In this document: one piece after another, positions 2,969 through 54,210 of the stretch
Position numbering within the stretch: the first letter of the stretch is position 1
Layout: each line of letters starts with the position of its first letter
Source: a virus
IMG/VR virus record: IMGVR_UViG_3300032236_000443
Span: 34,100-98,099 of that record
Direction: 5' to 3' (one strand)
Length of the DNA stretch: 64,000 nt
Notes under the pieces: model-generated
Told to the model about the DNA's origin: nothing
The model's database searches: none
Seen by the model: the letters and a program-made list of their open reading frames with translations, nothing else
Program-made: the position numbers and the translations under genes

Positions 2969-4323
2969 TAGCGTGCGTACCTCACAATGATTAGTCCAGA
3001 ACCACCAGTTCCACCTGCACCTGCCTGAGAGTTTCCACCAGCACCTCCACCAGTGTTAGCAAGTCCATTGGCTTCAGTCTGGAGGTTGTCGTTACCTCCA
3101 CCTTGGTTACCTGCACCACCGTTACCGCCTCCGCCATTACCTCCAAGGCCGTGACCGTCCCAAGTACCGTCTGAACCTCCGTTACCTAAGTTAGCAGCAC
3201 CTCCGCCACCACCTGCGTAGTAAACCGTTCCTGAAACATTCTGCCCTGTGTTGGTTGCAAGGCCCCATGAAGAGTACGCAGAAGTTCCTGCACCACCGTT
3301 ACCGCCATGATTAGCGTTACCAATTTCTCCAGCAACTCCAGCACCACCACCGCCACCGCCGTTGCGAACATTCGTAGCACCATTACCACCAGAATTACCT
3401 TGAGTACCAGTTCCTGTTCCACCTATGCCAGGAGTGTAACCACCACCACCACCTCCAGAACCACCATTGGCTCCGTTGTCACGGGATGAACCTCCTGCAG
3501 AACCTCCACCAACTGCAGCGGTTAGAGCACCAAACTGTGAGTTGCCACCATTACCGCCAATACTGCCTCCACCGTTAGCACCGCCTGCACCTACTGTGCA
3601 TGTGTACGAAGTACCACCTGTAAGAGATTGAGATGTAAGTGCTACTACACCGCCCGCACCACCGCCACCACCAAAACGCCAGGTAGAACCGCCACCTCCA
3701 GCAACTACAAGGATGTCAGCAGTAAGGTTACGGGTAGGTGTAAATGTACCTGTTCCATTAAACACGTGATAAACGTAAGAAGAGTCATAGGCAATAGAGG
3801 TTCCGCCAGAAGCCTGTGCAACTCTAGCGTTTACTGGGCTAATGCCGTATAAAGAAAAAGTAGAACCAGCAGCAAAAGTATCGGAGTCTAAGTTAATAGT
3901 TATAGATGTAATAGGTAAGAAGTTTCTCCACGTACCTGTATGAGCGTCAACTCCTCCACCGCCTCGGTCTGCTCGTGACATGATGGTTTTGTAGACAGTT
4001 GAGTTGGAATATTGAAAAATATCTACACGTCGCATACCCCACTCAGTGTTAGATGGAGTAGCGTAGTAGTCAATAGTTAAGTTGTTTCTGTTTGACCAAC
4101 GACTTGAGATAGGGCTACTTCCAGTTCCTGCCATAACTGTGCTGGAGTAATTTGCTCCAGTATCTCCGTTAAACTGAAGGTTTACGTAGTTAGTTGTAGT
4201 TGAAGAAGCAAGGCATGAAATGACTAAATACAAATCTGTATATGTTTGGTCAATGTTTGTAAAAGTTACACTAGCCGCTGATGAGTTTAACTTAATAGAC
4301 TGTAAAGGAGTATTTGTTGGCAT
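2968..4323 (-). CDS. glycine-rich tail fibre/receptor-binding protein
   Basis: Same two-domain layout; ends GGSGLIIVRYAR. Confidence 0.75.
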   Translation of the reverse strand: MPTNTPLQSIKLNSSAASVTFTNIDQTYTDLYLVISCLASSTTTNYVNLQFNGDTGANYSSTVMAGTGSSPISSRWSNRNNLTIDYYATPSNTEWGMRRVDIFQYSNSTVYKTIMSRADRGGGGVDAHTGTWRNFLPITSITINLDSDTFAAGSTFSLYGISPVNARVAQASGGTSIAYDSSYVYHVFNGTGTFTPTRNLTADILVVAGGGGSTWRFGGGGGAGGVVALTSQSLTGGTSYTCTVGAGGANGGGSIGGNGGNSQFGALTAAVGGGSAGGSSRDNGANGGSGGGGGGYTPGIGGTGTGTQGNSGGNGATNVRNGGGGGGAGVAGEIGNANHGGNGGAGTSAYSSWGLATNTGQNVSGTVYYAGGGGGAANLGNGGSDGTWDGHGLGGNGGGGNGGAGNQGGGNDNLQTEANGLANTGGGAGGNSQAGAGGTGGSGLIIVRYAR

Positions 4324-4922
4324 TATTTAATCCCATAGATAGATGCTATGCAACCTGAAACTAATGTTTGGCTACAGTTTAATGAGATAGTTCCTACTGC
4401 TTGTGTGCTATTCCATAGCCCCGATGCCAGTTGAATTTTACCTGAACCATTTACTTCCTGGGCTTCTAGCACTCTAATGTTTTTTGTTTTATTTGTATTT
4501 GAATAATCCAAGATATCAATAATGAAAGTGGTCCACATACCTGCGGTAGAACTTGAGCCGTTTACTTCTCCAACTCCCATAAAACTAACGCCCGTTTGTC
4601 CACCCGTAAAGACGCTTGAACCATCTCCACCAAGTAGGTGATATGAGTAGTTGTTTCCAGAGTCAATGCCTGATGCAGGACCCATCTGCATTTGCCAACC
4701 AATGCCTACCGCTTGGGCATAAGTAGAACGTACTAATCCACGAATTTGAAGGTGAGTGTATGTTGAAGGTATGTTATTGAACAAAAAAGCAGTTGAGTTT
4801 GTAGACAACTGTGCAGAAGTTATAGCATCCATCGCAGCAGTTTGAGATACTTGGTCCCAAACAGTTTGTTGCTTCGGAAAACCAGCCTGAATACTTTGAC
4901 GAGAAAGACGACTAACTGCCAT
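4323..4922 (-). CDS. virion fibre module protein
   Basis: FNNIPSTYTHLQIRG...IIDILDY...SIYGIK; paralog of 316..915. Confidence 0.7.
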   Translation of the reverse strand: MAVSRLSRQSIQAGFPKQQTVWDQVSQTAAMDAITSAQLSTNSTAFLFNNIPSTYTHLQIRGLVRSTYAQAVGIGWQMQMGPASGIDSGNNYSYHLLGGDGSSVFTGGQTGVSFMGVGEVNGSSSTAGMWTTFIIDILDYSNTNKTKNIRVLEAQEVNGSGKIQLASGLWNSTQAVGTISLNCSQTLVSGCIASIYGIK

Positions 4923-10600: not shown

Positions 10601-10751
10601 CTCCTTGTAGTCCAGCAGTAACCCACTCAGAGCCATCCCAAGTGTAAAGGGCATTATAAGTCGTATTGAAATAAACATCGCCAAGAGACGGACTGCTTGG
10701 CGGAGTCGCCAGATGCAGTACGTTAAGGGATGTTAAAAACCGACGGCTCAT
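7614..10751 (-). CDS. collagen-like fibre protein with BclA/C1q-like globular domains
   Basis: Long G-X-Y runs (GSQGTTGAQ) interrupted by globular segments, e.g. FQPTIAGYYLIN (C1q-like). Confidence 0.8.
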   Translation of the reverse strand: MSRRFLTSLNVLHLATPPSSPSLGDVYFNTTYNALYTWDGSEWVTAGLQGAQGTTGSTGTQGATGSQGLTGSQGATGSQGSVGTQGTTGATGSQGTTGSTGAQGLQGFTGPQGNDGAQGTTGIQGAVGQTGSQGTTGSQGATGSQGATGNQGTTGATGSQGTTGAQGFTGSQGLTGDIGPTGSQGTTGAQGATGATGSQGTTGTTGAQGAQGTQGYTGSTGAQGAVGATGSQGTTGSQGTTGSQGTTGSQGTTGTTGSQGTTGSQGATGSQGTTGSQGTTGAQGTTGAQGTQGTTGSQGVQGTQGIQGAVGPVSSQNAHQSVEAVQTTPLGNGATYYAGSADASNGTGIGAYIIATSNGTLSIDGYTTPNMAVGDRVLIAGQATQVQNGIYTVTQTGSSSSVWKLTRATDADNHVAAQVEEGDYVFVTDGTVYGKTAWLMYANGSNSDGSIRIGTDAIQWTQASGVGAQGATGAQGAGGTIAYYGSFYDTTTQTVANSTTAYPISINNTYENNGVITQGGNSIKFLNQGTYSITISVQLVNTSSQIYNANLWLRVNGVDSPYSNSQMTVPQSHGSVSGQIIETVNYVYTFNANDVVTFMWQAESTTVSIETIAAGTTPTTPITPGIILTATQVAYAIQGTQGLQGATGTQGATGTQGFTGAQGTTGATGSQGTTGAQGFTGTQGAVGTTGAQGTTGTTGATGAQGATGTQGFTGTQGAIGSTGAQGTTGTTGAQGSQGTQGIQGLNGGMLTAANYTANGRLANDQTVTAGADALIAFVDDFDPQNWYDPTAKRFQPTIAGYYLINFDAWWATGALSTAQTNTQVRKNGSTIAIYQNSVSTTNGYTQGGSKVVYLNGSTDYIDFTAYTSNTTSQVLQWGGNTNGQGTYFSATLITSGTVQGTTGATGAQGATGATGSAGATGAQGAQGFTGTTGATGSQGTTGLQGATGATGATGAQGATGAQGFTGTQGSTGTQGLTGSQGVQGSIGTTGAQGIQGISGNAYIVDYLDGGSSAIKPDIIYDAGVSSSNTTTWTYTIDAGASTVSF

Positions 10752-10770
10752 GTACGCCCTTTGCTATTTG

Positions 10771-13023
10771 TTAGCCGATTACCACTACTCGGAATTGGTT
10801 GGTTCCTGGAGCAACCGCAAATGTTACGTTAACCTTTGAGGTTGTTGCGTGTGTAACGTCTGCAAAAACTTCTTCTCCAGAATCAGTATCATAAATAGTT
10901 ACAGATACATCTGTAGTTCCAAAGTTATGGTAGATATCAAACGAGGTGTTGTCAGCATCACCAATAGTCTGAGCCATCTTCTTGGTGATGTATGAATAGT
11001 CAATGATTTCAATAGCACCAGTGCCGTTGTTAATCTGAAGACCAGTTCCAAGGAGTGCAGCAAATCCATCACCGTCTAGTGAAAGTCCGCCATTTTCCTT
11101 GGCTACACCAGAGATAACTCCGCTTGAGATATTGATTCCGTTGCCTGCAGTGTATTCACCAGCGGCTGAGAACTGTGTCCAAGTAGATGCTCCAGCAGTA
11201 AACGCTGTGACAATCCAACCTTGAGCAGCGTAAGTTCCTTCTTCTACAAGGACGTAAGAACCTTCTTTAATGTCTGTATCTGAAGGGGTTGTAGAAGCAA
11301 CCAAGGTCTGTGAACCAGAGTTGTAAATATAGATTCCGTTTTCAGTTGCTGTGGTTTGTGCCTTAACAAGTACACGGTCACCATTTACAAGAGTAACTCC
11401 ACTGATTGGGTCAGAGGCATTTGCAGTGATGTCAATGTTTGTACTTGTTGCAGTACGAACTGAGCCAAGAACAGATAGTCCTTGTGCTGTAGAGTCTACG
11501 TAGCCTTTAGTTGCAGCATCACCAGGGTTTAGCGGAGTTGCCAAATTGCTGATGGTGTAACCCTCTGCGTTTAGGTCTGCGTCAAGGATGACACCAGACC
11601 CAAGGGTCTTGTTAGTAAAGGTCTGTGAAGTACCGACTGTTGCAATTTCACGTTGTGGGTATGCGTTAGCCGCATCATCGCCCCAGTGAATATACGCCTT
11701 ACCTGTGTGACCGCCAGCATCATTTCCTGGGTAAAGGATGATGTCGTTAATCGCACGGAGAGCAAGGTCATCTGCAGCAGTGATGCGTGCTGTTCCTGTA
11801 TAAGAACGGTAAATTTGAAGGTATTCAGTTTGTGAAGAATCACGGTAACTAATTCCGTTAGGAGTATCTACTCGTACTGTTCCATCGGCAGCGATTACTA
11901 CATCGCCGCTATTTGACTCAAGACCAAGGTCTCCAGTTGTAGCAACTACAGTAAATTCACCAGATGAAAGTGCGGCAATAATGCCACGTTGGTATCCAGT
12001 GTCATCTCCACCGTACCAGTACTCTGTTTTACGAGTATGAATTTCTTGGTTACGAGTAGTGATTACTCCGTTATCGGCTTGAAGAACAAGTGGTCCATCG
12101 TAAGTACCGATGGTTTGTTCTCCTGCTGCAGTTGTTATGTAAAGTTCTCCACCAAAAACTGTGCTATTTGTGGATGGGTTTACGTAAATATCACCGCTGT
12201 GTGACTCCAAAACCATTTGGTTGGATGCAACTACAGAAAGGCTTCCGTCTGATGGGTGAGCAAGAATTAATCCAAGACGAGAACCAGAAGTATCTCCACC
12301 GTTCCAAAGTTCAATCTTTGGTGTATGGAACTCAGAGGTATCTGTTGTTACAGTGCCGTTGTCTGCCGTAAGGTGAAGAGAATTAACATCAGTTGTGATA
12401 ATTCCGCCATCACCGTTAATTGTGAGATTACCATTAAAGATAGTAAGAGTTGTAGATGGCTCAATCTTGACGTTGCCATTGTTTGACTCCAAAGCAAGGT
12501 TGTTGATTGCAACAATCGCAAACTCACCTGCAGTGTAAGGGTTTGCGGTTACAATGCCGTACTGGTCGCCATCTTTCCAATACTCGGTCTTACGAAGGTG
12601 AAGTTCGCCGTTAGGAACGTCAATGTATGACGGAAGACTTACGGTTACATCACCAGTTGTTTGGTCAACAGAAATTTGATTTGTAGTACCGTTTACAGAG
12701 TTGACGTAAGTAGCGCTACCTGATGCGCCAATTTGCAACCAAGCATTATTGTAATCTAAGTAAAGAGTTTGTGTGTCAGTTGTAGCGTAGACACGTCCAT
12801 TGTTACCTGCTGTAGGAAGAGCAGAGTATGTACCGTACTCAATAGAGCCACCAACTGGAACCCAGTTAGTACCATCGTAGATACGGAGTTCTTTAGCAAC
12901 TGTGTTGTAGTAAGAGTGACCAGCACCGTATGGGGAAGGGTTATCTGGAAGGTTTTGAATCTTAAAGTTGGTTAACTCAAGACCAGTTAAACTAATTGGT
13001 GTGTAAAACTTACGGGCCATCAT
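10771..13023 (-). CDS. tail fibre protein
   Basis: DAATKGYVD and LVNGDRVLVKAQT..ENGIY fibre motifs; three internal repeats (ELHLRKTEYW/EFHTPKIELW/EIHTRKTEYW). Confidence 0.75.
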   Translation of the reverse strand: MMARKFYTPISLTGLELTNFKIQNLPDNPSPYGAGHSYYNTVAKELRIYDGTNWVPVGGSIEYGTYSALPTAGNNGRVYATTDTQTLYLDYNNAWLQIGASGSATYVNSVNGTTNQISVDQTTGDVTVSLPSYIDVPNGELHLRKTEYWKDGDQYGIVTANPYTAGEFAIVAINNLALESNNGNVKIEPSTTLTIFNGNLTINGDGGIITTDVNSLHLTADNGTVTTDTSEFHTPKIELWNGGDTSGSRLGLILAHPSDGSLSVVASNQMVLESHSGDIYVNPSTNSTVFGGELYITTAAGEQTIGTYDGPLVLQADNGVITTRNQEIHTRKTEYWYGGDDTGYQRGIIAALSSGEFTVVATTGDLGLESNSGDVVIAADGTVRVDTPNGISYRDSSQTEYLQIYRSYTGTARITAADDLALRAINDIILYPGNDAGGHTGKAYIHWGDDAANAYPQREIATVGTSQTFTNKTLGSGVILDADLNAEGYTISNLATPLNPGDAATKGYVDSTAQGLSVLGSVRTATSTNIDITANASDPISGVTLVNGDRVLVKAQTTATENGIYIYNSGSQTLVASTTPSDTDIKEGSYVLVEEGTYAAQGWIVTAFTAGASTWTQFSAAGEYTAGNGINISSGVISGVAKENGGLSLDGDGFAALLGTGLQINNGTGAIEIIDYSYITKKMAQTIGDADNTSFDIYHNFGTTDVSVTIYDTDSGEEVFADVTHATTSKVNVTFAVAPGTNQFRVVVIG

Positions 13024-16261: not shown

Positions 16262-17011
16262 TTAACCGAACAGTCCCTGACCACGGTTGCTGGCTGCAGT
16301 GCCAAGTAGTTTGGCTCTTTGTTTCGCATAGTCTGCCAATGACATATCCCTGATTGAATCAGGTGTGTACGATTTTTGTTCCGAGTCATTATCGAGGGGT
16401 CCTGAAGCAGGAGCGGTAACACGTGCTCCTACCATTGATTGCTTTGCATTAGCAGTTGCCTGCTGAACATCCTGCATAATTCCTGCAGACTTGTCCTTGA
16501 GCGTTGCAATGCTTTGCTCAATTTCTTCTTGGCTGTTACCGTTAACAAGGTCAATGAGTTGAGGGACAATGCTGTCACGCTCTTCCTCAATACGCTGTGA
16601 ACGATACGCCATCAAATCTTGGAACTGACGTTCTCTTTCAAGGAGGGCAAAAGCCTTTTCTCTCTCAAGACGCTCGGACTCTAACTGAGTCTGCCATTCT
16701 TGCTCCTTCTTAGAAAGGAGTTCCTTGACGGAGAGTTCTTCTTCTTCTTTTGCTTTCGCTTTTGCAATACGCTCTGCTTCTTTTGCAGCACGCTTTGCTT
16801 CTTTTTCTGCTTGACGAGCGGCTTCTTCTGCTTGAGCCTTCTTTAGTGACTCAAGTTCTTGAGCCATCTTTTCCATCTGAGGATATAACTTAGCCTTCTC
16901 CTGTGCACGAGCCTTTGCAAGGTCGTCAGCAGTAAAGCCAGGCATAGTTGTCTCACTCACTTCCGAAACTTCAGCAACTGCTGGAGTCTCAATTACTTGG
17001 TTTTCATCCAT
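16262..17011 (-). CDS. capsid scaffolding protein
   Basis: Coiled-coil between portal and capsid; C-terminal IRDMSLADYAKQRAKL. Confidence 0.8.
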   Translation of the reverse strand: MDENQVIETPAVAEVSEVSETTMPGFTADDLAKARAQEKAKLYPQMEKMAQELESLKKAQAEEAARQAEKEAKRAAKEAERIAKAKAKEEEELSVKELLSKKEQEWQTQLESERLEREKAFALLERERQFQDLMAYRSQRIEEERDSIVPQLIDLVNGNSQEEIEQSIATLKDKSAGIMQDVQQATANAKQSMVGARVTAPASGPLDNDSEQKSYTPDSIRDMSLADYAKQRAKLLGTAASNRGQGLFG

Positions 17012-33785: not shown

Positions 33786-34166
33786 ATGCCATACAAAGAC
33801 CCAGATGTCCGCAAGGCCTATCAAAAGGCTTACTCCAACAATCACTACGAGGCTAACAAGGAAATCTACAAGTCTCGAAGCGCCGCCTACAACATCAAGG
33901 CCCGCAAGCGCAACGCAGAGTACATCCAAAACATCAAGTCCAATACGCCATGTACAGACTGCGGCAAGAAGTATCCCTACTACGTCATGCAGTTTGACCA
34001 CATCTATGAGAAGAACGGCGCAGTAGCAGACTTGGCACGAGCATCTGTCTCCATCGCTCGACTACAGAGAGAGATTGATGGTTGCGAATTAGTGTGCTCT
34101 AACTGCCATGCGGAACGCACATACTCACGCAAGTTTGATGATGAAGGACTAAGTGAATGGATTTAG
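33786..34166 (+). CDS. HNH endonuclease-like protein
   Basis: CTDCG...MQFDH...CELVCSNCHAERT. Confidence 0.8.
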   Translation: MPYKDPDVRKAYQKAYSNNHYEANKEIYKSRSAAYNIKARKRNAEYIQNIKSNTPCTDCGKKYPYYVMQFDHIYEKNGAVADLARASVSIARLQREIDGCELVCSNCHAERTYSRKFDDEGLSEWI

Positions 34167-34170
34167 CACA

Positions 34171-34208
34171 AAGCCCCTGCAACGTATTCGCCGTATAAAC
34201 AGGGGCTA
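34171..34208. terminator. hairpin between convergent HNH gene and tRNA transcript
   Basis: AGCCCCTG...CAGGGGCT, followed by TTGT on the minus strand. Confidence 0.55.
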
Positions 34209-34215
34209 AGGCTAC

Positions 34216-34246
34216 AGGTGTTTTTAACGACGTGACCTAGGTCGGA
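34216..34246 (-). ncRNA. putative H-type pseudoknot, copy 1
   Basis: UC-CGAC-CU-AGGU-CAC-GUCG-UUAAAAAC-ACCU; covaries with copy 2. Confidence 0.65.
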
Positions 34247-34291
34247 GAGGTTTGCACACTGGTACGCCACTCTCAAGTAAAACTATACACG

Positions 34292-34362
34292 CTCCCTGGC
34301 CTGGATTCGAACCAAGATAACCACCTCCAAAGGGTGGCGTCCTACCGTTAGACGACCTGGGA
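34292..34362 (-). tRNA. tRNA-Gln(TTG)
   Basis: Cloverleaf: CCACC-CTTTGGA-GGTGG anticodon arm, GGTTCGAATCC T-arm; A5-A68 mismatch; CCA not encoded. Confidence 0.9.
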
Positions 34363-34516
34363 TTGGTTGGCAGCCACGGTTAAGCCTGCTGCCTGTTACC
34401 ACCTAGTGAGTTAGCAGAGCAATCTCCATCGGCCTGAACACCTTCGTATGATGCGCTCACAGGTTAGGTTTCAGTGGTAACGAACTTGTACAAGTTGTTC
34501 AGACTCATACTTCGTG

Positions 34517-34589
34517 CTGGTCTGGGAGGGCTCGAACCTCCGACTTAGGCATTAACAGTGCCTCACTCTGCCAACTGAGTTACAGACCA
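34517..34589 (-). tRNA. tRNA-Asn(GTT)
   Basis: TGGTCTG/CAGACCA acceptor, AGGCA-CTGTTAA-TGCCT, GGTTCGAGCC; CCA not encoded. Confidence 0.93.
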
Positions 34590-34593
34590 TAGT

Positions 34594-34624
34594 GGGCGTT
34601 TTTAACGTCGAAGCCCAAGACGGA
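34594..34624 (-). ncRNA. putative H-type pseudoknot, copy 2
   Basis: UC-CGUC-UU-GGGC-UUC-GACG-UUAAAAAC-GCCC; ends 4 nt before tRNA-Asn. Confidence 0.65.
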
Positions 34625-34692
34625 AGATAGGCGCTTTAAGTTTGCACACTCAAAGCATTCTGCAGGCATAGTGCACTAGCCCACCTTCTTCG

Positions 34693-34763
34693 CAGAGTCT
34701 CTAGGAGTCGAACCTAGGCTTACCGCTTTGGAGACGGCAGTGCTTCCGTAACACTTAGACCCT
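34693..34763 (-). tRNA. tRNA-Trp(CCA)
   Basis: AGGGTCT/AGACTCT acceptor, GCCGT-CTCCAAA-GCGGT, GGTTCGACTCC; 3' CCA not encoded. Confidence 0.9.
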
Positions 34764-34767
34764 TTAT

Positions 34768-34801
34768 GCAGTTTTTGTAACGGACTCATACTGCCAACCG
34801 T
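34768..34801 (-). ncRNA. putative H-type pseudoknot, copy 3
   Basis: ACGG-UUG-GCAGU-AUGAGU-CCGU-UACAAAA-ACUGC; ends 4 nt before tRNA-Trp. Confidence 0.5.
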
Positions 34802-34806
34802 CAGGA

Positions 34807-35304
34807 CTAACCTATCATTGATTTATCGAACTGGTCTTGCGGAATACGCCACGAACCTTCAACCGCATACTTCCACTCATTATGCGGTGGAATCTCTTCC
34901 ATCTTTAACCAACCGAAGATTTCCACTTGCGAGTAGTAGTCACGGTCCAACACTCGTGCGCCAACAAGTAGCCACCCTGGACGAATGTCTTTAGGAAAGA
35001 CAGGTATCGCATCTTTAGTGCGGATGGTCTTGACTTCGATGTTTGTGCCTACCTCAGCAATGTCTTTGCGGTAGCCGTGCTCTGAGTTGGGGTAGAACGG
35101 GAAGGTGAATGACTTCTTGTACAACTTAGCCACTGCGTACTCAGCGACGATAGTTCTGACGTTGGCAGCAATCTCTGGCTCTAGTTTTGATTTATCCTTG
35201 TAATTGTCACGGTCTTCTGAACCCCACTTCATCATCCAGCGATTTAGCGCAGCATCGGCGCAGGCACGCACTTCCTCTTTAGTTAAATTGACGATGTGAC
35301 TCAT
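34807..35304 (-). CDS. hypothetical protein, possible PD-(D/E)XK-like fold
   Basis: AEYAVAK...IEVKT...FGW; resembles 35301..35825. Confidence 0.55.
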   Translation of the reverse strand: MSHIVNLTKEEVRACADAALNRWMMKWGSEDRDNYKDKSKLEPEIAANVRTIVAEYAVAKLYKKSFTFPFYPNSEHGYRKDIAEVGTNIEVKTIRTKDAIPVFPKDIRPGWLLVGARVLDRDYYSQVEIFGWLKMEEIPPHNEWKYAVEGSWRIPQDQFDKSMIG

Positions 35305-35825
35305 AACTCCTCCATTGAGTGTAACGACGCTCTAGGAACGTAAAACGTCTTGTTGTTGAAACGCCACGCCTCGTTTTTGCACTCGTGACCATACATCCAT
35401 CCTACAGCAACGTAAGGAGCGCCCTTCCAGTCAGGAGCAACACGGCGGGTCTTTTTTGCAAGCCCGCCCGCCAATAAAACGTACTTCAACTCTGGGTCAT
35501 CATGCGTTGTGAACCTCAAGCCTCGTATCTCATTGGTGTACTCAGGAAACTTTGGTGGAAAGGCATAGCGCACCTCGCCAAAGCCAGGGATATCTAACTC
35601 GGTCTTCCACTTGTTGACGTGTGGAACGAACTCGGTATCTCCCATCATGCGGGCAAAGGCCAATTCGCTACCTGCAGCAATCATGTGCTGCATAGACTCC
35701 CAGACATCTCCCTCTGAGTAGTTCATGTTCTTCTCAGGTTGTCCGAGATACGGTAGTTGTCTATCCCAACCTACTTGAGCGCAGATGGCTTCTTCTTCAA
35801 TTGTTAATGCGTATTCGGTAATCAT
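35301..35825 (-). CDS. hypothetical protein, probable paralog of 34807..35304
   Basis: LTIEEEAIC...SELAFAR...GEVRY...VGW. Confidence 0.55.
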   Translation of the reverse strand: MITEYALTIEEEAICAQVGWDRQLPYLGQPEKNMNYSEGDVWESMQHMIAAGSELAFARMMGDTEFVPHVNKWKTELDIPGFGEVRYAFPPKFPEYTNEIRGLRFTTHDDPELKYVLLAGGLAKKTRRVAPDWKGAPYVAVGWMYGHECKNEAWRFNNKTFYVPRASLHSMEEL

Positions 35826-52704: not shown

Positions 52705-54210
52705 TTATTCTTCTATAGAAGTCTGAATAATCTTAGTAACGGCGTCTTCCTTTAGAGCCTCTGGCAGTTCTCGAAGTGCTTGTGCCCTGTCTCCAAAGAT
52801 GGCAGAGAGAACTCCACCTGACGATTGACGGCTGGCAGTAATCTGAATGAACTCTTTATTCTGGTCCATCTCGTTGACGTTGCCCACCAGTTTTAGGAGT
52901 CGGTCAATTTCTTGGGAAAGGTTAGGGTCTGCGTATCCACCGTTCATTTCTTCAGCAAAACGCATAAAAGCAACTCTTTGGCCCTGCATTTCAATGATTG
53001 CAGTAAGTAACGCCTTCAACTGTTCTTTAGTCTTTACCTCAACTGGAAGGTTAAAGGCGCACATGTTTGAGGGCTTGAAGGCTGGGCAGTTCGCTGCAAC
53101 AAAGCAGGTATCGCATTGGCGAAGAGAAGAAGACTGGTTGTTGATGACGGGAACTTCTTTAAGGACATCACGACCATTGTCGTCTTGCTCGACTACCGTC
53201 TTCATCTTGTACCCAAAAACAGGTAGGTTTTGTATCTCTTCTGGCGCTCTTTGGACTAGTTCAGTGGGCTCTTTTTTCCGCATCTCAACATCACTGTTAT
53301 CAGAAAGGTACCCCCCTAATTCCCCTAAACCTGATAGTAGAGGGGTATCGCTGTTATCAGATACTTGGGAGTTTTTACCGCCCTCAATGATGTGTAAGTC
53401 AGGTGTCTTCTTGTCCATGGATGCCTCTAGTTTCTTGTATGACCAGACTGCCACTCTAGTGGCTTCTAACGTACTATCTTGGCTAAACGCCGAATAGTCC
53501 AGTCCTGCCTTCTCCACTACGGACTTGTAGCGGGGTCTTGCTTGGTCCTTCATCTTCTTTGGGTAACGTACTAACTTGGTGCCATCCCAGATGATTGTCT
53601 CGCCTCGGCGCATGGGGGATAGCCACGACAATGTGCTGGCAGTCGTAAATGGTACCTGCCGTAGGTTGTCGGGCTTGGCGCAGGCAAGGGCGTGGAACCG
53701 TGTTCCATACTGGCGCTCATACGACCTTGTAAGGGCTGAGAGGCTGGTTACAGACTCAATCTCAGCGTTGGGTATGACCACGTTCTGATGGGCCTCACAG
53801 AGGGCTTTGAGGGCTGGTAAGCCGTACTCCTCATGCCAGACCACCCATAACTTAGGGTCGTTCTCGAAGAAGGGGCGTTGGGCTTCTACCCAGTTCTTTC
53901 CTAGAACTAGGGAGTCGAACTCTGTAAATGCCAGGGCCCTGTCAGCATTGTTCACCAGGAACTCCTGGTACTCAGCGGCTAAAGAAGTTAGTTCTTCTTT
54001 AGATAGCCCAGCCTTATCTGCCTGGGCCGCTCCAGACTCAATGACAACCAGGGTATCTGAGTCGAAATGCTCAGAGATGAGCCAGTTCTTATTCTTGGGC
54101 AAACCTCTTTTGCGTAACCCCCAAAAGTTGAGTCCCATCAACTCAACTTTCTGACCCTCTAGGAGGGTACGGTTACTTCCAACTTCGGCGCCACTAAAGA
54201 TGATTCTCAT
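52705..54210 (-). CDS. TGT/DpdA-like barrel (degenerate) fused to a Cys-rich C-terminal domain
   Basis: IESGA, EFD, VVWH, FHALA, PFTTASTLSW...RRG echo DSGA/ELD/PVWH/HGFG/PFYSVDSSSW; CDTC...CPAF...C. Confidence 0.5.
   Translation of the reverse strand: MRIIFSGAEVGSNRTLLEGQKVELMGLNFWGLRKRGLPKNKNWLISEHFDSDTLVVIESGAAQADKAGLSKEELTSLAAEYQEFLVNNADRALAFTEFDSLVLGKNWVEAQRPFFENDPKLWVVWHEEYGLPALKALCEAHQNVVIPNAEIESVTSLSALTRSYERQYGTRFHALACAKPDNLRQVPFTTASTLSWLSPMRRGETIIWDGTKLVRYPKKMKDQARPRYKSVVEKAGLDYSAFSQDSTLEATRVAVWSYKKLEASMDKKTPDLHIIEGGKNSQVSDNSDTPLLSGLGELGGYLSDNSDVEMRKKEPTELVQRAPEEIQNLPVFGYKMKTVVEQDDNGRDVLKEVPVINNQSSSLRQCDTCFVAANCPAFKPSNMCAFNLPVEVKTKEQLKALLTAIIEMQGQRVAFMRFAEEMNGGYADPNLSQEIDRLLKLVGNVNEMDQNKEFIQITASRQSSGGVLSAIFGDRAQALRELPEALKEDAVTKIIQTSIEE

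What the first reader, a model, noticed from the sequence alone, without database searches (positions are those of the whole stretch)
34216..34801. Three small H-type pseudoknots interleaved with the tRNA genes, two with compensatory changes in both stems
Seen (minus strand): copy 1 UC-CGAC-CU-AGGU-CAC-GUCG-UUAAAAAC-ACCU (34246-34216) and copy 2 UC-CGUC-UU-GGGC-UUC-GACG-UUAAAAAC-GCCC (34624-34594) have the same length and the same A-rich L3. Both stems differ in sequence yet still pair (CGAC/GUCG vs CGUC/GACG; AGGU/ACCU vs GGGC/GCCC). Copy 3 (34801-34768) has the same topology. Copies 2 and 3 each end exactly 4 nt before a tRNA 5' end, so RNase P would release RNAs capped at the 3' end by a pseudoknot; copy 1 precedes the terminator. 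Known folds of this size with an A-rich L3 include preQ1-I aptamers, type III antitoxin RNAs (ToxI, which phages can mimic) and tmRNA PK1. Inference: the tRNAs may serve as processing punctuation to generate a set of stabilised small RNAs (antitoxin mimics, ligand sponges or nuclease blocks).
Basis: partly seen in the sequence, partly recalled or inferred. Interest (0 to 1): 0.88.

Follow-up and report, generated by a model that had tools for sequence, protein, structure and literature searches.

The report
Small pseudoknot RNAs between phage tRNAs
The spacers of this uncultivated phage's three-tRNA cluster hold real structured RNAs: a rare 31-nt pseudoknot whose pairing is kept by compensatory changes, and a separate ~155-nt RNA found between tRNA genes in many other phages. 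What either one does is not shown.

Summary
The three elements sit at the stated coordinates. Copies 2 and 3 each end 4 nt before a tRNA. Copies 1 and 2 are paralogues whose only stem differences are three compensatory pairs; random mutation reaches that in under 0.1% of simulations.

One orthologue exists, in a syntenic relative (L083). It adds a third pair type at position 9:31, but that stretch has no tRNAs, so the link to tRNAs is not obligatory. Exact-pattern scans of IMG/VR, JGI metagenomes and GTDB genomes found no other member. Copy 3 shares only the topology and the A-rich motif, which is weak evidence.

No Rfam family matches. The PreQ1 model run over the whole phage genome does not hit any copy, and no ToxN gene was detected, though that search was uninformative. 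The elements do share some preQ1-I hallmarks (Y-C before the P1 3' strand, A-rich L3 ending in C). The phage also encodes a TGT-fold protein but no preQ0 synthesis genes. This is a lead, not a result.

My best reading is compact 3'-terminal structures of RNA segments released by tRNA processing. In support, the Asn-Gln spacer is a covarying ~155-nt RNA whose core 17-mer occurs in 34 phage contigs. In about 20 of these it lies directly between two tRNAs.

This scan had noted the shared spacer motif before, on this same DNA only.

The parts
34768..34801 (-). Copy 3: candidate pseudoknot (ACGG/CCGU and GCAG/CUGC, A-rich L3). It starts 6 nt after the stop codon of ORF165 and ends 4 nt before tRNA-Trp.
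   Evidence: for the sequence. The topology alone is weak evidence. No homologue lies downstream of ORF165 in 60+ relatives. Model R1 does not find it.
34692..34763 (-). tRNA-Trp (CCA anticodon); no CCA 3' end encoded
34633..34656 (-). Hairpin upstream of copy 2 (9-bp stem) that carries the shared GUGUGCAAAC motif (34640-34649)
   Evidence: MFE fold of the Trp-Asn spacer, z = -2.8; motif positions
34594..34624 (-). Copy 2: 31-nt H-type pseudoknot (S1 CGUC/GACG, S2 GGGC/GCCC, L3 UUAAAAAC). It ends 4 nt before tRNA-Asn.
34516..34589 (-). tRNA-Asn (GUU anticodon)
34363..34515 (-). Asn-Gln spacer: a conserved ~155-nt structured RNA. It has a 5' hairpin with a nearly invariant CUGAA(C/U)A loop, a conserved multi-helix core and a variable 3' hairpin. 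It is a separate family from the pseudoknots.
   Evidence: Its core 17-mer occurs in 34 IMG/VR contigs. On 18 unique sequences, 17 of 31 predicted pairs show compensatory changes. No Rfam match.
34291..34362 (-). tRNA-Gln (UUG anticodon)
34250..34259 (-). GUGUGCAAAC motif upstream of copy 1, shared with copy 2 and, as GUGCAAA, with L083
34216..34246 (-). Copy 1: 31-nt H-type pseudoknot (S1 CGAC/GUCG, S2 AGGU/ACCU, L3 UUAAAAAC), 8 nt before the terminator-like hairpin
   Evidence: The orthologue at L083 10516-10486 (minus) differs only at the paired positions 9 and 31.
34165..34207 (-). Terminator-like hairpin (8-bp GC-rich stem, 20-nt loop, UUUGUGCU tail) at the convergence with the HNH gene
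   Evidence: The tail is conserved in L083. The loop sequence is conserved in L087/L089 just before a tRNA-Asn. The simple terminator scan did not call it.
33786..34166 (+). HNH endonuclease gene, convergent with the tRNA/RNA cluster
   Evidence: PHROG 3106, E = 1.4e-24; Pfam HNH just below its cut-off

Best explanation
Copies 1 and 2, and one orthologue in a related phage, belong to a very small, lineage-restricted family of ~31-nt RNA modules. Each folds as an H-type pseudoknot: S1 4 bp, L1 2 nt, S2 4 bp, a 3-nt junction ending in C, and an invariant L3 of UUAAAAAC.

The modules lie in the non-coding RNA block of the phage, always in the direction of transcription. Each sits at the 3' end of an RNA segment: either 4 nt before an RNase P site (copies 2 and 3) or shortly before a terminator hairpin (copy 1 and L083).

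The most likely role is a compact 3'-terminal structure. When the tRNAs are cut out, this would leave each upstream segment (the ORF165 mRNA end, the Trp-Asn spacer RNA) with a folded end and only a 4-nt tail, which is poor substrate for 3' exonucleases. It would also keep the tRNA leader from pairing into the tRNA.

Shown: the conserved pairing, the positions, and the rarity of the family. Inferred: the processing, the stabilisation, and whether copy 3 belongs to the family at all.
For: - Pairing: all 24 cells pair, three pairs change on both sides, and position 9:31 has three pair types. Under random mutation this has P of about 2e-4 to 8e-4.
- L083 differs from copy 1 inside the 31 nt only at the paired positions 9 and 31.
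- L3 and the upstream GUGUGCAAAC motif are identical between copies whose stems differ.
- Position: copies 2 and 3 end 4 nt before tRNAs. Copy 1 and L083 precede hairpins with the same U-containing tail.
- The same design rule holds for the unrelated Asn-Gln spacer RNA. Its terminal helix ends 3-4 nt, A first, before the next tRNA in most of the other 17 sequences (6 nt in the window), and it lies directly between two tRNAs in about 20 contigs.
- Precedent: the T4 tRNA-region transcript is the precursor of eight tRNAs plus the species I and II RNAs (PMC2330249).
- Each stem alone is weak, -1 to -6 kcal/mol, as expected for a fold that depends on tertiary A-minor contacts.
Against: - There are only three alignable sequences from two phages, so covariation rests on few events, and one changed position (31) borders a divergent flank.
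- More than 60 relatives that carry the neighbouring ORF165 lack the module. No other tRNA cluster examined has it. It is therefore dispensable for tRNA processing.
- Two of the four copies are not next to a tRNA.
- In copy 2 the 3' tetramer could instead pair with a distal GGUGGGC at the start of the spacer, and the nested MFE folds do not contain S1.
- No expression or end-mapping data could be obtained.
Confidence: 0.4

Rival explanations
1. The pseudoknots are ligand-binding aptamers built like preQ1-I riboswitches, specific for a 7-deazaguanine or another purine. They would act as sensors or as decoys released from the tRNA precursor, linked to the phage's TGT-like enzyme. For example, they could titrate preQ1 so that the host's que genes stay on and supply the base.
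For: - The architecture equals preQ1-I: a short P1, a 2-nt L1 containing U, a 4-bp P2, a junction whose last base is C preceded by A (copy 1, L083) or U (copy 2), and an A-rich L3 followed by C. These are the hallmarks listed in PMC11625349.
- Loops are conserved while stems covary.
- The stems are marginal without tertiary or ligand support.
- The phage encodes a 501-aa protein with a TGT fold: PHROG 887, E = 4.6e-57; pLDDT about 98 over residues 1-270; the 50 best Foldseek matches listed are all TGT, best E = 1.8e-5.
- It lacks QueC, QueD, FolE and radical-SAM genes, so it would depend on host 7-deazaguanines.
Against: - Rfam PreQ1 (RF00522) run over the whole phage genome does not hit any copy. 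Its only hit, 12.3 bits against a cut-off of 39, lies elsewhere. Searches of 56-58 nt at E <= 10 gave nothing.
- The P1 closing pair is C-G, not the conserved G-C pocket floor. Copy 3 has the G-C floor but a U at the specificity position.
- There is no expression platform and no regulated ORF downstream.
- The TGT-like gene has over 1,600 homologues in related phages, whereas the pseudoknot occurs in only two contigs. The two are therefore not co-inherited.
- The Pfam TGT model does not recognise the protein.
Confidence: 0.12
2. The pseudoknots are protein-binding decoys or antitoxin mimics, such as a pseudo-ToxI-like RNA against a host type III toxin, or a decoy for a host or phage ribonuclease.
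For: - Their size and pseudoknot fold with an A-rich single strand resemble ToxI units. Phage TE is known to carry and expand pseudo-ToxI repeats (PMC3475682).
- There are several copies in one highly transcribed RNA block.
- The rarity and lineage restriction fit an arms-race element.
Against: - The copies are dispersed, 378 nt apart and separated by tRNAs, not tandem. They differ at 29% of positions, which does not fit mimicry of a single host repeat.
- No Rfam antitoxin RNA family matches.
- No homologue was found in 185,579 species' genomes by the exact-pattern scan.
- No ToxN gene was detected in the phage, but the control for that search was silent, so this point is weak.
Confidence: 0.1
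3. There is no function of its own. The copies are by-products of local duplication and recombination that shuffle tRNA and small-RNA cassettes, perhaps promoted by the adjacent HNH endonuclease. The pairing would be a simple hairpin plus coincidence.
For: - The family is tiny, and absent from most relatives and from all other collections.
- The region is a mosaic. tRNA content differs among relatives, the hairpin loop is shared with L087, and an HNH gene is adjacent, as SegB is in the T4 tRNA region (PMC2330249).
- Loose 4+4-bp pseudoknots are common by chance.
Against: - Three compensatory double changes with no uncompensated stem change are very unlikely by chance.
- The single interior difference between copy 1 and L083 falls exactly on the partner of position 31.
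- L3 and the upstream motif are invariant while the stems diverged 29%.
Confidence: 0.2

Closest known systems
preQ1-I riboswitch aptamer (Rfam RF00522)
   Same: About 31-34 nt H-type pseudoknot. A-rich L3 that would lie in the P1 minor groove. Junction cytosine preceded by A or U directly before the P1 3' strand. U in L1. C after the A run. Stems that are marginal on their own.
   Different: - It fails the Rfam model.
- P1 has 4 bp and its closing pair is C-G rather than G-C.
- The C after the A run is not paired into P2 in copies 1 and 2.
- It does not sit in a 5' leader, and it has no terminator/antiterminator or Shine-Dalgarno platform and no que or transporter gene downstream.
Type III antitoxin RNAs (ToxI) and phage pseudo-ToxI
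   Same: Small RNA pseudoknot units of similar size, several copies per locus, phage-encoded precedent.
   Different: The copies are not tandem and not near-identical. No toxin gene was found. There is no sequence or model match. The units would be released by tRNA-processing enzymes rather than by a toxin.
Stable species I and II RNAs of the phage T4 tRNA gene region
   Same: Non-tRNA RNAs encoded within a phage tRNA cluster, made from the same precursor as the tRNAs, of unknown function, with a homing endonuclease gene in or beside the cluster.
   Different: I made no sequence comparison with the T4 RNAs. The modules here are much smaller (31 nt, inside 43-140-nt spacers). The ~155-nt Asn-Gln spacer RNA is the closer analogue.
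Luteovirus-type compact frameshift pseudoknots (from my own knowledge, not tested here)
   Same: The same size class, with a 2-nt L1 and an A-rich L3 forming minor-groove triples.
   Different: There is no slippery site and no overlapping ORF. Copy 3 follows a stop codon, but an in-frame stop follows two codons later. The inter-helix junction is 3 nt rather than 0-1.

Membership tests
preQ1-I riboswitch (RF00522) | Scores above the Rfam gathering threshold (39 bits) with the family covariance model | tested here: not met
   RF00522 over the whole 98-kb phage genome gave one hit of 12.3 bits, elsewhere (G000 16963-17001), and none at the three copies. cmscan of 56-58-nt pieces at E <= 10 gave nothing.
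preQ1-I riboswitch (RF00522) | Strictly conserved specificity cytosine directly 5' of the P1 3' strand, preceded by U (type I) or A (types II and III) (PMC11625349) | tested here: met
   Copy 1 and L083 have A-C, and copy 2 has U-C. Copy 3 has G-U, so it does not meet this.
preQ1-I riboswitch (RF00522) | Pocket floor formed by a G-C closing pair of P1, with the G on the 5' strand (PMC11625349) | tested here: not met
   Copies 1, 2 and L083 close S1 with C6-G16. Only copy 3 has G-C.
preQ1-I riboswitch (RF00522) | Sits in a 5' leader with an expression platform that controls queuosine synthesis or transport genes | tested here: not met
   The copies lie before tRNAs or before a hairpin at a convergent gene junction. 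The L083 copy lies after a small ORF.
preQ1-I riboswitch (RF00522) | Binds preQ1 or preQ0 | not testable with these tools
   Needs in-line probing or ITC.
Type III antitoxin RNA (ToxI-like) | Tandem array of near-identical ~34-40-nt repeats directly upstream of a ToxN/AbiQ-family toxin gene | tested here: not met
   The copies are 378 and 177 nt apart, separated by tRNAs, and differ at 9 of 31 positions. The PF13958 search of the phage genome was negative, but its control did not ring.
Type III antitoxin RNA (ToxI-like) | Sequence or model similarity to a known antitoxin RNA family, or to a host repeat | tested here: not met
   No Rfam match. No homologue in GTDB genomes by exact-pattern scan. 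The host is unknown.
H-type RNA pseudoknot (structural class) | Two helices in which the 5' strand of the second lies in the loop of the first, both supported by covariation | tested here: met
   S1 has one pair and S2 two pairs with changes on both sides, all cells pair, and sliding controls collapse. Simulation P < 0.001. Only three sequences.
Non-tRNA stable RNAs of phage tRNA clusters (T4 species I/II type) | Encoded between or beside tRNA genes on the same strand and released from the common precursor | tested here: inconclusive
   The gene arrangement is met.

The most novel reading that the evidence does not exclude
The pseudoknots are a new, minimal class of 7-deazaguanine-binding (or other purine-binding) aptamers. 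The phage would express them at tRNA-like levels and release them by RNase P and RNase Z. They would act in trans as metabolite sponges, lowering free preQ1/preQ0, switching off the host's riboswitch feedback, and so feeding the phage's own TGT-fold transglycosylase, which has no biosynthetic genes beside it.
Probability: 0.07. Interest if true: 0.9.

Novelty: new variant of a known kind. Interest (0 to 1): 0.55.

Why it matters
If the pseudoknots are real functional units, they show that phage tRNA clusters serve as production lines for other small structured RNAs, with the tRNAs acting as cutting marks. This idea has been open since the T4 species I and II RNAs were found.

The much more widespread ~155-nt spacer RNA seen here gives that idea a tractable and abundant test case. 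The preQ1-like build of the pseudoknots, in a phage that carries a TGT-fold enzyme but no base-synthesis genes, suggests a cheap binding experiment. A positive result would reveal a metabolite-sponge strategy not described for phages.

If the pseudoknots only act as 3'-end caps, the finding is a modest addition to what is known of RNA processing in phages.

Tried and rejected
**Searches for further homologues**
- Pattern with the upstream motif plus L3 in IMG/VR: 14 hits, all chance matches in coding DNA.
- Pattern with the loops fixed and S1 free in IMG/VR: 12 hits, only L083 real.
- Stricter pattern in JGI metagenomes: 18 hits, none real.
- Stricter pattern in GTDB genomes: 6 hits, none real.
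- Covariance model R1 over 44 loci including 30+ phage tRNA clusters: only the three known copies. The best other hit was E = 0.29, on the wrong strand.
- Anchoring on ORF165: 67 relatives, none with the spacers.
- Anchoring on an L083 ORF: one relative, without the module.
- blastn against cultured phages matched only the tRNAs.

**Readings rejected**
- Promoter: no sigma-70-like site is shared by the copies (and inspection).
- Recoding signal: no slippery site, and an in-frame stop follows two codons after the ORF165 stop.
- Genome-wide repeat: the motifs occur only in this cluster.
- Antisense-tRNA origin of the 5' half: a chance-level hit, E = 4.5.

- Searches of the TGT-like protein against PDB sequences, Pfam and NCBIfam were silent, and the protein atlas gave only unnamed viral clusters. 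Only PHROGs and the fold search identified it.

Full report
**What the window is.** The window is bases 34100-98099 of a 98,099-bp IMG/VR virus record with direct terminal repeats. The region in question is a minus-strand block. It runs from a string of small ORFs ending with ORF165 (34807-35304), through three tRNA genes (Trp 34763-34692, Asn 34589-34516, Gln 34362-34291), to a GC-rich hairpin at 34207-34172. It then meets a convergent HNH endonuclease gene (33786-34166). None of the three tRNAs encodes a CCA end.

**Check of the observation.**
- Copy 2 ends at 34594 and copy 3 at 34768, each 4 nt before a tRNA 5' end.
- Copies 1 and 2 are clear paralogues. Besides the 31-nt element they share an exact GUGUGCAAAC further upstream, and both that motif and CGUUAAAAAC occur nowhere else in the 98-kb genome.
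- Within the 31 nt they differ at nine positions. Six of these form three compensatory pairs (5:17 A-U to U-A, 9:31 A-U to G-C, 12:28 U-A to C-G) and three lie in loops.
- I simulated 20,000 copies of copy 1, each with nine random substitutions, and asked how often any shared two-helix structure showed three or more compensatory pairs. The answer was 0.02-0.08%.

**Relatives.** The flanking protein ORF165 has 67 relatives in IMG/VR. Their tRNA content varies from none to two, and none has the spacers.

Exact-pattern scans that fixed the loops and left the stem positions partly or wholly free found a single true homologue in IMG/VR, L083. They found none in the JGI metagenome contigs and none in one genome per GTDB species. 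A covariance model built from the three sequences found nothing further in 44 loci, including more than 30 phage tRNA clusters.

L083 is a syntenic relative of this phage (tblastx). Its element differs from copy 1 inside the 31 nt only at positions 9 and 31, which become C and G. That gives this pair a third type. Position 31 borders a divergent flank, so I count this as moderate extra support. The one interior change falls on exactly the partner position and gives the complementary base, which by my estimate has about a 1-2% chance.

L083 has no tRNA genes at all in 12 kb. There the element follows a small ORF and precedes a hairpin with the same CUUUGUGCUA tail as in the window. The link between pseudoknot and tRNA is therefore not obligatory.

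**Copy 3.** Copy 3 shares a CGUUA(C)AAAAAC-like motif, the 4-nt distance to a tRNA, and the topology. It is not alignable to the other copies, has no homologue elsewhere, and is missed by the model. A loose 4+4-bp descriptor fits 22 of 202 unrelated A-rich sites. I treat it as a possible distant member.

**Comparison with known families.**
- cmscan against all 4,227 Rfam families gave only the tRNAs over 1.5 kb, and nothing at all for 56-58-nt pieces at E <= 10.
- RF00522 (PreQ1) run over the whole phage genome gave one sub-threshold hit elsewhere and none at the copies.

I compared the elements with the hallmarks of preQ1-I listed in PMC11625349.
- Copies 1, 2 and L083 have the junction cytosine preceded by A or U, a U in L1, and the A-rich L3 followed by C.
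- Their P1 closing pair is C-G rather than the conserved G-C floor.
- They have no expression platform.
- Copy 3 has the G-C floor but a U at the specificity position.

So they are built like preQ1-I but are not members of the family.

For type III antitoxins, the defining tandem near-identical repeats and the adjacent toxin gene are absent. PMC3475682 gives the phage precedent.

**A lead I did not expect.** The phage encodes a 501-aa protein (52705-54210, minus) that matches PHROG 887, 'queuine tRNA-ribosyltransferase', at E = 4.6e-57.
- Pfam, NCBIfam and PDB sequence searches are silent.
- An AlphaFold model built on 78 diverse homologues has pLDDT of about 98 over residues 1-270.
- The 50 best Foldseek matches listed from the PDB are all tRNA-guanine transglycosylase, best E = 1.8e-5, TM 0.42-0.50 on the target.
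- The genome has no detectable QueC, QueD, FolE or radical-SAM gene.

A phage that handles 7-deazaguanines and also carries preQ1-like pseudoknots is suggestive. However, the TGT-like gene has more than 1,600 homologues in related phages, while the pseudoknot is in two contigs. The two are not co-inherited, and I keep this as a low-probability rival.

**What else is in the finding's coordinates.** The Asn-Gln spacer (34363-34515) is a separate and much better supported structured RNA. L083 carries it just downstream of its pseudoknot.
- Its core 17-mer occurs in 34 IMG/VR contigs.
- In about 20 of these it lies directly between two tRNAs of varied identity. The upstream tRNA always ends 86-88 nt before the 17-mer, and the next tRNA starts 66-68 or 82-86 nt after it.
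- On 18 unique sequences, RNAalifold predicts 31 pairs, of which 17 show compensatory changes (a first set of eight sequences is).
- Its anatomy is a 5' hairpin with a nearly invariant 7-nt CUGAA(C/U)A loop, a conserved multi-helix core, and a variable 3' hairpin.
- No Rfam family matches it.
- Its terminal helix ends 3-4 nt, A first, before the next tRNA in most of these sequences (6 nt in the window). Copies 2 and 3 use the same spacing and the same A-first linker.

T4 gives the precedent: its tRNA-region transcript is the precursor of eight tRNAs plus the species I and II RNAs, with a homing endonuclease gene in the cluster (PMC2330249).

**Mechanism.** My preferred reading (confidence 0.4) is that the pseudoknot is a compact 3'-terminal fold of RNA segments. 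It would be left with a 4-nt tail after RNase P cleavage, or would sit just before a terminator. Either way it would protect the segment and insulate the tRNA leader. Each stem alone is worth only -1 to -6 kcal/mol, so the fold would depend on L3 minor-groove contacts, on Mg2+, or on a ligand or protein.

The rivals are a purine or 7-deazaguanine aptamer (0.12), a protein decoy or antitoxin mimic (0.10), and a functionless recombination by-product (0.20). 

**Verdict.** The pseudoknot fold is probable, at about 0.75 for copies 1 and 2. The family is real but tiny, and its function is open. The more important object inside the same coordinates is the widespread ~155-nt RNA embedded between tRNAs. 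An earlier first-reader note on this same DNA (e1-6021718) had already flagged the shared spacer motif, and nothing was found on other DNA.

Noticed in passing
window 34363-34515 (minus); also L083-L085, L087-L090, L092, L132, L134, L135, L138, L143-L146, L148-L150, L152-L154: A conserved ~150-170-nt structured RNA lies directly between two tRNA genes in about 20 of the 34 IMG/VR phage contigs that carry its core 17-mer. It has a nearly invariant CUGAA(C/U)A loop that resembles an anticodon loop reading GAA. Of 31 predicted pairs, 17 show compensatory changes. It has no Rfam match. It looks like an undescribed phage RNA family.
   Followed up: yes
window 52705-54210 (minus): A 501-aa protein with a confident TGT (tRNA-guanine transglycosylase) fold in residues 1-270, followed by a C-terminal part with four invariant cysteines. 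Pfam and NCBIfam do not recognise it. It has over 1,600 homologues in related ~95-100-kb phages. The phage has no preQ0 synthesis genes. It may be a DNA or tRNA 7-deazaguanine transglycosylase.
   Followed up: partly
window 34172-34207 (minus) and L087 about 3880-3917: The terminator-like hairpin after copy 1 has a long loop containing UACGGCGAAUACGU. The same loop sequence is conserved in a hairpin placed directly before a tRNA-Asn in another phage (L087/L089). The hairpin may be a shared RNA module rather than a plain terminator.
   Followed up: partly
window 34807-35304 and 35301-35825 (minus): Two adjacent paralogous proteins of 165 and 174 aa (PHROG 18407, function unknown) lie directly upstream of the tRNA block. 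ORF165 contains a D...E-V-K pattern reminiscent of PD-(D/E)xK nucleases. In relatives the gene is followed within 7-9 nt by a tRNA.
   Followed up: partly
L084 about 4461-4648 and L085 about 10696-10887 (oriented as): Other 155-215-nt inter-tRNA spacers in unrelated phages are conserved between contigs and end in possible pseudoknots, for example AUUG/CAAU crossing GGUGG/CCACC with a UAAAA loop. Structured non-tRNA cassettes may be common in phage tRNA arrays.
   Followed up: no
L083 10776-11120 (minus): A 114-aa ORF upstream of the L083 pseudoknot begins with an FHGT...PGD-type motif that reminded me of Arr-type ADP-ribosyltransferases. This was not tested.
   Followed up: no
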